A stretch of 64,000 nt of DNA from the NCBI RefSeq assembly GCF_009914755.1, contig NC_060940.1. The stretch is one strand, 5' to 3'. The notes beneath the pieces were generated by a model that ran no database searches, was not told the origin of the DNA, and worked only from the letters and a program-made list of their open reading frames with translations. Made by a program: the position numbers and the translations under genes. Shown one piece after another: positions 28,700 through 46,935 of the stretch; within the stretch, counting starts at the first letter, position 1; each line of letters starts with the position of its first letter. The stretch comes from the human T2T-CHM13v2.0 reference genome, Homo sapiens.

Positions 28700-29800
<1,101 letters not shown>

Positions 29801-43323: not shown

Positions 43324-43357
43324 ATAGATACCTTTCAGATGTTTTATTAAAAGCTTA

Positions 43358-43646
<289 letters not shown>

Positions 43647-44086
43647 TTAATGATGAGTAGGTACAGAAAATAAATGTACAAAATGTATATGAGATTCGTG
43701 TTCTGATGACATACATTTAAAAATATGTTATGTATTGCTTCGTGTATTACTTCAACAAATATTAACTGCCAAATTTGTTTCAGGCTTGAATCAACGATGC
43801 AGAATGCTGAGAATAAAGTGATAAGTGATGCGTAACCCTTACCCTTGGGGAAACAAAATGTGTTTCTTTTAGCTAGACAGATGAAATTAATAAAACCTGG
43901 GGCATAAGATGAGTTATACTAAAGAGTTTAGCCTTTTCCCAAAGACTCTGGAAAGCAGATAGAGAATCTGGTTCATGTAATTACATGTTTATATAGGAAA
44001 TATCACTCTGGTTTTAGGTAAAAATGAAGGGAGGGGAAAAAGAGTGAGAGTGAAGTATGGAGATCAGAATGGAGTTGATACAGTCA

Positions 44087-44412
<326 letters not shown>

Positions 44413-44799
44413 TCAAAGGTGGGATATGATAGCTCCCAAATTAGGGCTCATGACTATGAATTAAGGAAAGTAGATGCATTTTAGAAATATTTATGATGTG
44501 AACTTGCCTAATTTGGTTAGTAGATATTGCAGAGATAAGAAAGAAAAAAGAGATTTTAAAAAAGCTTTATAGCAAATTAATGGGACACCCAAGTTAAACA
44601 TTTAACCAGTTTTTTATATACAGTCTTGAAACGTCCTAAAGATGGAAGTTTTCACTTGTCAGTTCATATATGTAGTATCATAATTAGTCTACTCATGTTG
44701 TGTTAATTTAGTATTTAATACTTTAAATAAGAAATATGAGGCAATAGCTCGTATTATGAAACTTTTTTCAACCTGCACAGAAAAGGTTTTGAAACCTAG

Positions 44800-45778
44800 T
44801 GTATTAGCTATTGCTTAAAACAATACAATTTATTATCTCATGTTTTCTGTGTCATGAGTTGAAGAATAATTTAGTTTGGGTCCCGTTTAGGGTTTAACAA
44901 AGCTGCAATCAATATGTTAGCCAGAGTACTAGTCTCATCTAAGGCTCAGTTGAAGAAGGAACTTCCTTTAAGCTCATGTGATTGTTGGCAAAATTCAGTC
45001 TTCTTGCAGGTTATCGGAATGAGGGTTATGACTTTTTTACCAGCTGCTGGACAGAGGCCACCCTCAGTTGGTTGTCATGTGGCCCTCTCCATATTCTAAC
45101 TCACAAGATGCTCCGACCTCCCGCCTGTGCGCCCCAGTGGCGCGAACCGGAGTGCGCCTGCGCGCGGGCCACAAAGCGCTTGCAGCCGGGAGCTGCGCGG
45201 CCGCGCTGAGAGTCACGTGGTGCGCCAGGAAGCCGCCTAGCTTCTTGGAGAGCTCACTGCCTCGCTCCGCTCCTTTCCTGGCGGGAGGCTCTGAGCCACC
45301 CCCACCTGCGCAGGGCGGCCAGGGGTGAGTGTCCACTAGGAGCGTCGCGCCCACCCGGACTGTCCACGCTGGGGCGCAGGCCGTCAGAATGTCTTGCCCG
45401 GACCAGGGGACAAAATGGCGGCAGGGTGCGCCTCTTTAACTTACACAATACTTTATCACTCTTAAAACTTGAAGTTAGTTTCAGACTTGTTTATTTTTCA
45501 CATTCTGTTTATTTGAAACTGACAAAAAGCAAGAAAACATATTGGAAATACACCAATGGCAGCTGGTTTCTTAAAAGCCAGCAAGGAAAATAGTGTCTTC
45601 TAGGAAGACAGCTGTTAAAATCTTACATGTCATAATTACATATAGCATGTCACTTTTGCTGTATTCTACAGGTTAAAACAAAGTCACAAGTCTGACCCAC
45701 ACTCAAAGGGAGAAGATTATGCAAGAGCAAAAGCACGAGATGGAAACCATGGGGCCATCTTATAGTCTGTCTGCCGGA
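44800..45778 (-). mobile_element. MLT1F/G-like MaLR LTR split into 44800-45110 and 45556-45778
   Basis: The halves rejoin as ...ctcacaagatg|gcagctggtttcttaaaagccagcaagg, matching MLT1 ctcacaacatggcagctggcttc. Confidence 0.82.
45111..45433. promoter_or_regulatory. CpG-island-like promoter fragment inserted in the MLT1
   Basis: About 34 CpG in about 320 bp (hand count), GC about 70%; NRF1 gcgcctgcgc 45154-45163, USF/E-box gtcacgtgg 45212-45220, ETS caggaag 45226-45232, YY1 caaaatggcggc 45411-45422, donor gtgagt 45325-45330. Confidence 0.75.
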
Positions 45779-46935
45779 GAAAGATGAACACAAATCCTGT
45801 GAGTCTCTAGATTGTGTTTTTTCTATATATGCTCAAAGATTTAAGGATAAAATGATACCTAAACCAAAACAATAGTATATTATACACATACCTTTCTTGT
45901 TTTAGCCTTACATGTTTGCTTTTCAGTATATCAAAAGTTGTGTTTGTCAACTTCAAATAAGTAATTATCCAGATATATTGACTCACGGAAAATACAACAT
46001 TATTTTCCAAAGCAGTGAAAATTGTGCTTTGCAGCTCTGGAGATGCTACTTTGAGCAAAAAAAAATAAGCTTAGAAAAAAATGTGCCTAAGTATCAGGGT
46101 GTCTTGTAATTCAATTCAAATTCTTAAAGCTTCTTTCTGTTCTAATATTCTTTGGTATAATCCCTGATGAGTATTCTGTGTATATGGTAACACAAACAGG
46201 CTTAAATTTGGGACAATTTTAATACTGACTGGTAAGAAACTTATAGAAGAGATGAAAGAGCTGTTCTTACTGTTGCTTGTTCATCTTTTCTCCTAAGTCT
46301 TATTGAGCAGAATGAGAAGAAAATAACTCCTAATACACATCACATAAGCAATGCATATAGACTACGTGTACTGTCATTCATAAAATTTGTCTCTAACAGC
46401 AACTATGCCAAAGCTACCAATGTTGCAGCCCATTTAGTCTTCTGTAATGCTTTTCATTCCTTAATTCTCTTGGCCGTGTTCTTGCCTATCTAAGACCAGT
46501 TACAAAAGATAGTTTACTTTCATTTTTTCTCCTTTTCCCATAGTTTCACATCATTTAGGTAGAGCAGCAACTCCCAAGTGTTCCTGTAATTATTTAGCAT
46601 AGAATTCTAAAGTATCCGGAAATGCAAAATTCTGTAATACTGTCCAATTGTTAATTTAATCACACATATACGAAAGAATTAAAAAACCTACAATGCTATT
46701 GCTAGCATGAGTGCTCCAAAATAAATTAGGCATGACTCTTGCCATCAAGGGGCATCCAATCTATTTTGAAAAATATATCTATGAAACAAAGCCTCGTGTT
46801 CAAAGTGCTGTGAGACTAACAGTAACAGAAGAGCAATGGTAAAACTACTAACAACTTAGTGTCAGGAACGGTATATACTTTTTACATGAATCATCTAGTT
46901 TAAAATTAGTCCCAATTCTGTGAGGATGAGTTCAC

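What the first reader, a model, noticed from the sequence alone, without database searches (positions are those of the whole stretch)
45111..45555. Captured CpG-island promoter inserted into an old MLT1 LTR without retrotransposition hallmarks
Seen: a 445-bp block splits the MLT1 exactly between ...ctcacaagatg and gcagctggtttc, and the two halves rejoin into continuous MLT1. Only 'atg' is repeated at the ends and there is no poly(A)/(T). The first 320 bp or so hold about 34 CpGs in an otherwise CpG-depleted window, with NRF1 (gcgcctgcgc), USF/CLEAR-type E-box (gtcacgtgg), ETS (caggaag), a perfect YY1 site (caaaatggcggc) and a 5' splice donor (ggg|gtgagt, 45325). Known: this motif set is typical of housekeeping CpG-island promoters, and methylated germline CpGs decay quickly. 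Inference: a promoter from another locus was copied here by templated break repair or EN-independent cDNA capture. It is either very recent or has stayed unmethylated, and could act as a new orphan promoter or first exon.
Basis: partly seen in the sequence, partly recalled or inferred. Interest (0 to 1): 0.85.

Follow-up and report, generated by a model that had tools for sequence, protein, structure and literature searches.

The report
Transplanted SCAPER-like promoter founds LINC02125
A 445-base patch, stitched from a copy of a chromosome 15 CpG-island promoter (probably SCAPER's) and one exon of a chromosome 21 transcript, was pasted into an old repeat and now supplies the promoter and first exon of the lncRNA LINC02125.

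Summary
Bases 45111-45555 are an insert that splits an old interspersed repeat. The two repeat halves are colinear, only ATG is duplicated, and there is no poly(A). The first 320 bp are a CpG island (34 CpG, o/e 0.84; window 0.23).

A search of the window's own genome shows the insert is a two-part chimera.
- Part A (45111-45436) is 83% identical to the middle of a 1-kb CpG island at chr15:74,764,213-546 (minus). That island lies 63 kb upstream of, and on the same strand as, the SCAPER_N exons, so it is probably the SCAPER promoter, exon 1 and start of intron 1.
- Part B (45437-45555) is 94% identical to chr21:14,638,756-874 (minus). There it is bounded exactly by a pyrimidine tract plus AG and by GTAAGA, so it is a spliced exon and RNA-derived.

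Each part has only these two copies in the genome.

RefSeq puts the LINC02125 start (45173) and exon 1 inside A. The exon 1 splice donor is the copied chr15 donor. Exon 2 lies in the repeat's 3' half.

Best reading: an old (roughly 15-60 Myr), RNA-templated break-repair insertion (class 2 templated sequence insertion) that carried a working promoter. It is a new member of a known kind.

The parts
44815..45110 (.).
   Evidence: 40 scored genome matches, non-self mostly 66-78% identical; colinear with the 3' half in family copies
45108..45110 (+). ATG, left copy of the 3-bp target duplication or microhomology
   Evidence: Family copies carry the triplet position once; corrected gap of -3 or -4 in the four best copies
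45111..45436 (+). Part A: copy of the chr15:74,764,213-546 (minus) CpG island, probably the SCAPER core promoter, exon 1 and first ~112 nt of intron 1
   Evidence: E 1.4e-75; 270 matches, 54 mismatches, 13 gap columns; only two copies in the genome; SCAPER_N exons 63 kb downstream on the same strand; no other large CpG island between
45173..45324 (+). LINC02125 exon 1 (RefSeq NR_110934.1), wholly inside part A; 62 bp of A lie upstream of the annotated start
   Evidence: Hub annotation in the finding; sequence read
45325..45330 (+). Splice donor GTGAGT of LINC02125 exon 1, copied from chr15 (GGGGTGAGTGTCC is identical in both copies)
   Evidence: Alignments
45437..45555 (+). Part B: copy of a 119-bp exon-like unit at chr21:14,638,756-874 (minus)
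   Evidence: 112 of 119 identical, no gaps; only two copies in the genome; on chr21 bounded by tcatcttctctaAG| and |GTAAGA; such signals 119 nt apart occur at 2 of 79,680 positions in 40 kb of chr21, this being one
45556..45558 (+). ATG, right copy of the 3-bp duplication
45556..45776 (.). 3' half of the same old repeat
   Evidence: Family copies align to bases 1-221 of the 45556-45830 query
45672..45798 (+). LINC02125 exon 2, mostly exonised repeat sequence (acceptor ttctacAG|, donor |GTGAGT)
   Evidence: Hub annotation; splice sites read

Best explanation
A germline chromosome break inside an old LTR-type repeat was repaired by a 445-bp patch copied from elsewhere. The donor loci stayed intact.

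The patch joins two templates in the same sense.
- Part A is 326 nt from the 5' end of the chr15 CpG-island gene, probably SCAPER. It runs from about 60 nt upstream of the present transcription start, through exon 1 and its unspliced donor, about 112 nt into intron 1.
- Part B is one complete 119-nt exon of a chr21 transcript.

B's ends are exon-exact, so at least B, and most simply the whole patch, came through RNA and reverse transcription. The join was made by template jump or end-joining with 1-4 nt of microhomology. This is a class 2 (L1-endonuclease-independent) templated sequence insertion. The event is old, roughly 15-60 Myr.

CpG-island promoters start transcription at scattered sites, so the copied RNA could carry the core promoter itself. 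At the new site that fragment stayed CpG-rich, which implies it stayed largely unmethylated in the germline. It now fires from 45173 and uses the copied donor at 45324/45325 to splice into an acceptor in the repeat's 3' half. That gave rise to LINC02125.

Shown: the insertion, both donors, the exon-exact ends of B, the absence of L1 hallmarks, and the coincidence with the RefSeq exon. Inferred: the RNA origin of A, the SCAPER name, hypomethylation, and the age.
For: Donors: chr15 (E 1.4e-75) and chr21 (E 5.7e-44) were the only non-self matches (3 of 3 candidates scored). Reciprocal searches with 1101 bp of chr15 and 821 bp of chr21 each found only themselves and chr16. Homology is limited to 334 bp and 119 bp.

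Direction of copying: on chr16 the homology is bounded by the two halves of a colinear repeat. On chr15 it sits inside a 1050-bp CpG island. On chr21 it sits in unique sequence.

RNA origin of B: homology stops exactly at a pyrimidine tract plus AG| and at |GTAAGA. Such signals 119 nt apart occur at 2 of 79,680 positions tested.

Both parts lie in the sense orientation of their splice signals.

No L1 hallmarks: the longest A run is 5, the duplication is only 3 bp, and the target reads AAGATG|GCAG.

Promoter use: per the hub's RefSeq rows, the start at 45173 and exon 1 lie inside A. The donor GGGGTGAGTGTCC is identical in chr15.

CpG retention: 34 CpG against 46 in chr15, with 24 shared. Nine chr15 CpGs read TG/CA in chr16, against one the other way.

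The class is described in print. Class 2 TSIPs have no TSD and no poly(A), show microhomology, and come from RNA-derived patches that include spliced cDNAs and intronic sequence (PMC5110952, passages read). Core promoters can be transcribed, reverse transcribed and operate at the new site (PMC2386082, abstract).
Against: Part A is unspliced and includes sequence upstream of the present start, which would fit a DNA template equally well. Whether A's 5' end is a chr15 transcription start could not be tested.

Today's chr15 has no GT at the A/B junction, so A and B were not joined by ordinary splicing. How a single exon with both ends exact entered the patch is unexplained.

A and B differ in divergence from their donors: 54/324 against 7/119, Fisher p = 0.003. 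At non-CpG sites the figures are 26/220 against 6/117, p = 0.05. That would also fit two events, or a constrained chr21 exon.

The SCAPER assignment is positional. A check for the neighbouring gene at the next CpG island found nothing: 71 ORFs, no EF-hand hit.

No methylation, CAGE or cross-species data could be consulted. CpG retention (37 of 46 chr15 CpGs not lost to TG/CA) is only moderately above what a methylated copy of the younger age estimate would keep.
Confidence: 0.7

Rival explanations
1. DNA-templated patch. Fragments of genomic DNA, or replication-based template switching (MMBIR/FoSTeS-like), copied 326 bp of the chr15 promoter DNA. A separate cDNA or DNA piece from chr21 was captured in the same break. 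No RNA stage is needed for A.
For: A contains non-transcribed-looking upstream sequence (62 bp before the RefSeq start) and an unspliced donor plus intron. The junctions show only 1-4 nt of shared bases.
Against: B's ends are exon-exact, so a spliced RNA was involved for at least half of the patch. Both pieces are in the same sense. CpG-island promoters start at scattered sites, so the upstream 62 bp can be transcribed (PMC2386082 abstract).
Confidence: 0.18
2. Two separate events. A was inserted into the repeat first, and B was inserted later exactly at A's 3' edge.
For: A is 16.7% diverged from its donor and B 5.9%, Fisher p = 0.003.
Against: The second insertion would have to land precisely between A's last base and the duplicated ATG. 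One 3-bp duplication brackets A+B as a unit. At non-CpG sites the difference is borderline, p = 0.05. GC-rich, CpG-rich sequence is expected to diverge faster (recalled, no call).
Confidence: 0.07
3. An ordinary L1-mediated retrocopy or L1 template-switch chimera whose poly(A) and long target duplication have decayed or been deleted.
For: Two RNAs from different chromosomes are fused head-to-tail in the same sense, which resembles L1 chimeric retrogenes (recalled, no call).
Against: There is no A-rich remnant at either end. B ends at its exon's last base, directly on the target ATG. The repeat halves are exactly colinear, so no flanking deletion occurred. The duplication is 3 bp, where class 1 needs at least 5 (PMC5110952). 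The target is not T-rich/A.
Confidence: 0.04
4. The block is a member of an unrecognised repeat family or part of a segmental duplication.
For: None beyond its compactness.
Against: Each part has exactly two copies in the 3.1-Gb assembly, and the homology does not extend into either flank. There is no Rfam family at E below 0.3.
Confidence: 0.01

Closest known systems
Class 2 templated sequence insertions / TSIPs (Onozawa and Aplan; PMC5110952, passages read)
   Same: A short patch copied from distant loci with the donors intact. No poly(A), no target duplication of 5 bp or more, no L1 target motif, and microhomology-size overlaps. The templates are transcribed sequence, including spliced exons and intronic RNA.
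   Different: This one is fixed and old rather than polymorphic, joins two donors, and carries a complete core promoter that became a gene's start. Whether two-donor patches were reported there I did not see in the passages I read.
Retroposed promoters (Okamura and Nakai 2008, PMC2386082; abstract and one methods passage read)
   Same: A core promoter copied along with the 5' end of a transcript works at the new locus. This is explained by scattered start sites in CpG-island promoters.
   Different: Their cases are L1-type retrocopies of whole mRNAs. Here only about 326 nt of unspliced 5' end was copied, without the gene body, so the promoter drives unrelated downstream sequence.
L1 template-switch chimeric retrogenes (recalled from Buzdin and colleagues; not read here)
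   Same: Two unrelated RNAs are fused in one orientation in one insertion.
   Different: Those carry poly(A), 10-20 bp target duplications and usually a small nuclear RNA as the 5' part. None of these is present here.
LTR/TE-derived lncRNA exons and promoters (general knowledge, recalled)
   Same: Exon 2 of LINC02125 is exonised repeat sequence.
   Different: The promoter is not the LTR's own. It is foreign sequence pasted into the LTR.

Membership tests
Class 2 templated sequence insertion | Inserted sequence is templated from a distant locus that remains intact | tested here: met
   chr15 and chr21 donors are present and are the only other copies
Class 2 templated sequence insertion | No poly(A) tract | tested here: met
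   Longest A or T run in the block is 5; B ends ...ACACCA directly on the target
Class 2 templated sequence insertion | No target-site duplication of 5 bp or more, and no L1 endonuclease target | tested here: met
   Only ATG is duplicated; target reads AAGATG|GCAG
Class 2 templated sequence insertion | End-joining marks at the junctions (microhomology, small deletions, untemplated bases) | tested here: inconclusive
   1-4 nt are shared at the A/B junction and 3 nt at the flanks; no deletion and no untemplated bases
Class 2 templated sequence insertion | RNA-derived template | tested here: met
   Met for B, which has exon-exact ends (2 of 79,680 positions). Not testable for A.
L1-mediated processed retrocopy (class 1) | Poly(A) tail, duplication of 5 bp or more, introns removed | tested here: not met
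   None of the three: no A-tract, a 3-bp duplication, and A keeps its donor and about 112 nt of intron
CpG island (Gardiner-Garden and Frommer criteria, recalled) | At least 200 bp, GC at least 0.5, CpG o/e at least 0.6 | tested here: met
   320 bp, GC 0.71, o/e 0.84
Retroposed promoter (Okamura and Nakai) | Homology to the parent extends upstream of the new gene's start, and the copy is the operative promoter | tested here: met
   62 bp of A (53 of 62 identical to chr15) lie upstream of the RefSeq start at 45173 (hub annotation). Promoter activity itself was not assayed.
Retroposed promoter (Okamura and Nakai) | Copy of the parental mRNA body accompanies the promoter | tested here: not met
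   Homology to chr15 ends 112 nt into intron 1
Interspersed repeat family | Many dispersed copies | tested here: not met
   Two copies of each part
Small structured RNA retrocopy (snoRNA and the like) for part B | Match to an RNA family, or a stable fold | tested here: not met
   No Rfam match at E below 0.3; fold z-score -0.73
MLT1 (MaLR LTR) for the flanks | Match to the Dfam/Repbase MLT1 models | not testable with these tools
   Shown only to be an old, multi-copy family

The most novel reading that the evidence does not exclude
A natural 'promoter transplant'. A single chimeric RNA-derived patch moved 326 bp of a housekeeping CpG-island promoter into a CpG-poor stretch of the window. The patch combined nascent unspliced SCAPER 5' RNA with one exactly excised exon of a chr21 transcript, which hints at a trans-spliced RNA, a free-exon splicing intermediate or an end-to-end reverse-transcriptase jump. 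On its own, that fragment has kept itself unmethylated and transcriptionally competent for tens of millions of years, and it created a new lncRNA gene.
Probability: 0.3. Interest if true: 0.65.

Novelty: new member of a known kind. Interest (0 to 1): 0.5.

Why it matters
It gives a concrete, datable origin for a human lncRNA gene. The promoter, the first exon and its splice donor were imported ready-made from another gene, and the second exon was recruited from the repeat that received them.

It is also a natural test of two ideas usually addressed with transgenes. One is that about 300 bp of CpG-island promoter can specify its own unmethylated, active state at an ectopic site. The other is that break-repair patches, not only L1 retrocopies, can spread promoters.

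The copy is 17% diverged from its parent, so short reads map uniquely. Methylation, CAGE and factor binding at parent and copy can therefore be compared directly.

I found nothing in print on the origin of this gene. A search for LINC02125 found 4 papers, of which 3 were listed. I read passages in one, where the gene appears only in expression tables. A search for SCAPER + promoter + retrocopy found 0 papers.

Tried and rejected
- **B as a small structured RNA.** It is 119 nt and ends ACA+CCA. There was no Rfam match at E below 0.3 in the window or on chr21, and the fold z-score was -0.73, with 43 of 200 shuffles folding as well. Rejected.
- **B as a coding exon.** One frame is open for 39 codons in both copies, but there were 0 PDB hits at E up to 10 and 0 Pfam hits. 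No support.
- **A promoter for the chr21 transcript.** The only CpG-rich blocks within 20 kb upstream of B are Alu elements.
- **Confirming the chr15 gene through its neighbour.** I scanned 71 plus-strand ORFs in the 13 kb after the next CpG island (chr15:74,790,351-74,791,300). None hit EF-hand, and there was one sub-threshold Ribosomal_S10 hit. Inconclusive, so the SCAPER name rests on position.
- **Conserved motif blocks as evidence of selection.** The longest identical run between A and chr15 is 23 nt. By my own arithmetic, about 21 is expected for 83% identity over 324 sites. Not used as evidence.
- **Cross-species dating, repeat-library naming, methylation and CAGE.** No tool was available.
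- **Splicing as the origin of the A/B join.** Today's chr15 reads ...CCCTT|TCACC with no GT. Not supported.

Full report
**1. What is there**

The window is human T2T chr16:82,646,001-82,710,000 (hub note; confirmed). Bases 45111-45555 stand out from AT-rich, CpG-poor surroundings.
- All 34 CpGs of the block lie in its first 320 bp (GC 0.71, o/e 0.84). Its last 125 bp have none (GC 0.28).
- The flanks have o/e 0.17-0.20 and the whole window 0.23.
No A or T run exceeds 5.

**2. It is an insertion into an old repeat**

The 296 bp to the left belong to a multi-copy family. The search scored 40 matches from 50 candidates, and the non-self matches are mostly 66-78% identical. I fetched 29 copies and compared both flanks with them.
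- In 13 copies both halves hit on one strand within 1.2 kb.
- In 11 of these 13 the halves abut (corrected gap -32 to +18, and -3 or -4 in the four copies whose alignments reach the junction).
- Two copies carry inserts of their own (348 and 435 bp).
- 16 of 29 had no 3'-half hit nearby.

In an alignment of 10 copies, 9 run straight across the junction and one has a deletion there. None has extra sequence or a repeated triplet. The window reads ...CACAAGATG[445 bp]ATGGCAGCTGG..., so ATG is duplicated and nothing is lost. I could not test the family name (MLT1).

**3. Where the insert came from**

A search of the window's own 3.1-Gb assembly gave exactly two non-self matches.
- Block bases 6-330 match chr15:74,764,213-546 on the minus strand (E 1.4e-75).
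- Block bases 327-445 match chr21:14,638,756-874 on the minus strand (E 5.7e-44).

With sensitive settings the chr15 alignment starts at 45111.

The block is therefore a chimera of two parts.
- Part A is 45111-45436. Against chr15 it has 270 matches, 54 mismatches and 13 gap columns.
- Part B is 45437-45555. It has 112 of 119 identical bases and no gaps.

Reciprocal searches with 1101 bp of chr15 and 821 bp of chr21 found only themselves and chr16, with homology confined to the same 334 bp and 119 bp. So neither part is a repeat or part of a larger duplication.

The direction of copying is clear. On chr16 the homology is bracketed by the split repeat. On chr15 it lies in the middle of a 1050-bp CpG island with 96 CpGs. 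On chr21 it lies in unique sequence.

**4. The chr15 donor**

The Pfam family SCAPER_N matches two exons at chr15:74,700,809-934 and 74,663,612-731 (70.4 and 44.5 bits, both over the cut-off). They are on the minus strand, 63 kb downstream of the donor in the gene's direction.

No other sizeable CpG island lies between them. The only other hits in that span are three blocks of 300-350 bp with 15-21 CpGs.

I therefore take the donor to be the SCAPER promoter island. This is a positional inference, and I put it at about 0.8.

The next island, 26 kb further up, fits my recollection of the neighbouring gene RCN2. The check was blank, however: 71 ORFs gave no EF-hand hit.

Part A includes a homologue of the exon 1 donor: GGGGTGAGTGTCC is identical in both copies. 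It continues about 112 nt into the intron, so the template was unspliced.

**5. The chr21 donor is an exon**

On chr21 the homology begins immediately after ...tcatcttctctaAG and ends immediately before GTAAGA. In 40 kb of chr21, both strands, an AG preceded by at least 9 of 11 pyrimidines together with GTRAG 119 nt later occurs at 2 of 79,680 positions, and this is one of them. Homology borders that coincide with such signals mean B was copied from a spliced RNA.

B is not a known small RNA and has no notable fold. Its 39-codon open frame has no Pfam or PDB relative. I could not name the transcript. There is no CpG island within 20 kb upstream of it, only Alu elements.

**6. Mechanism**

The insert has no poly(A), a 3-bp duplication and a target that is not T-rich. 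Both pieces are in sense orientation, and the A/B junction shares only 1-4 bases (window ...GCCTCTT|TAAC...; chr15 ...GCC-CTTTCAC...; chr21 aag|TAAC...).

These are the marks of class 2 templated sequence insertions. Such insertions are patches copied from RNA, including spliced cDNAs and intronic transcripts, and used to mend a double-strand break without L1 endonuclease (PMC5110952, passages read).

The step I cannot explain is how one exon with both ends exact came to lie between unspliced chr15 sequence and the target.
- Ordinary splicing is out, because today's chr15 has no GT at the junction.
- Candidates are an end-to-end template jump by the reverse transcriptase, a trans-spliced or cryptically spliced RNA, a free 5'-exon splicing intermediate, priming on an ATG at the start of the next exon, or a single-exon circle. 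The circle would need a 1-in-119 coincidence.
- A DNA template for A cannot be excluded.

**7. Age**

A differs from chr15 at 54 of 324 sites (25 transitions, 29 transversions). At non-CpG sites it differs at 26 of 220. B differs from chr21 at 7 of 119 sites, and at 6 of 117 non-CpG sites.

The contrast gives p = 0.003 over all sites and p = 0.05 over non-CpG sites.

With recalled neutral rates of 1.1-2.2e-9 per site per year, the K2P distances of 0.05-0.13 give roughly 15-60 Myr. That is far younger than the repeat, but not recent. The difference between A and B leaves some room for two events, or for constraint on the chr21 exon.

**8. What it does now**

The hub's RefSeq rows put LINC02125 exon 1 at 45173-45324, wholly inside A. 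That leaves 62 bp of copied promoter upstream of the start (53 of 62 identical to chr15). Exon 1 ends at the copied donor. Exon 2 (45672-45798) uses ttctacAG| inside the repeat's 3' half and |GTGAGT at its end.

The NRF1-like site, the CACGTG box, the GGAAG core and the ATGGCGGC site are all present in the chr15 parent too.

A keeps 34 CpGs against 46 in chr15, with 24 shared. Nine chr15 CpGs read TG or CA in chr16, against one the other way. The copy has therefore decayed a little more than the parent, but far less than its CpG-free surroundings. I read this as long-term germline hypomethylation. That is an inference, since no methylation data were available.

This matches the published idea that core promoters can travel with the 5' ends of their transcripts and work at the new site (PMC2386082, abstract). 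Here, though, the promoter travelled without the gene body and by a non-L1 route.

**9. Verdict**

The donor test it proposed is positive, 'very recent' is excluded, and 'first exon' is already RefSeq annotation. Two points are new: the second donor, and the exon-exact piece that argues for RNA.

This is a new, well-resolved member of known kinds (class 2 templated insertion; transplanted promoter), not a new mechanism. I found nothing in print on the origin of LINC02125.

Noticed in passing
L003 (chr21:14,637,256-14,640,374), around locus bases 1497-1624: The chr21 exon-like unit is flanked by TAAG on the left and gTAAG on the right. This near-direct repeat could be mistaken for a target duplication. 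It is most simply the overlap of the acceptor (AAG) and donor (GTAAG) signals.
   Followed up: partly
window 45438-45554 and L003:1501-1618 (minus): One reading frame is open across the whole 119-bp unit (39 codons) in both copies, despite 28% GC. There was no Pfam or PDB relative.
   Followed up: yes
chr15:74,790,351-74,791,300 (L053): A second large CpG island (950 bp, 101 CpG) lies 26 kb beyond the donor island. From recollection of the gene map it is probably the neighbouring gene's promoter. ORFs in the next 13 kb gave no family hit.
   Followed up: partly
L054:356-832 (+), chr15:74,794,356-74,794,832: An ORF has a sub-threshold Ribosomal_S10 (S20e) Pfam match (17.4 bits, cut-off 21.2). 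It may be a decayed ribosomal-protein retrocopy.
   Followed up: no
window 44731-44846: A long AT-rich inverted repeat just upstream of the repeat's 5' end gives a weak let-7-like hairpin match on both strands (19.9 bits against a gathering score of 53.5). Almost certainly chance.
   Followed up: no
window 43355-43653, 44085-44409, 29376-29692 and others: The other CpG-rich 300-bp stretches in the window coincide with ~300-bp masked repeats (Alu-sized). They are not further islands.
   Followed up: partly
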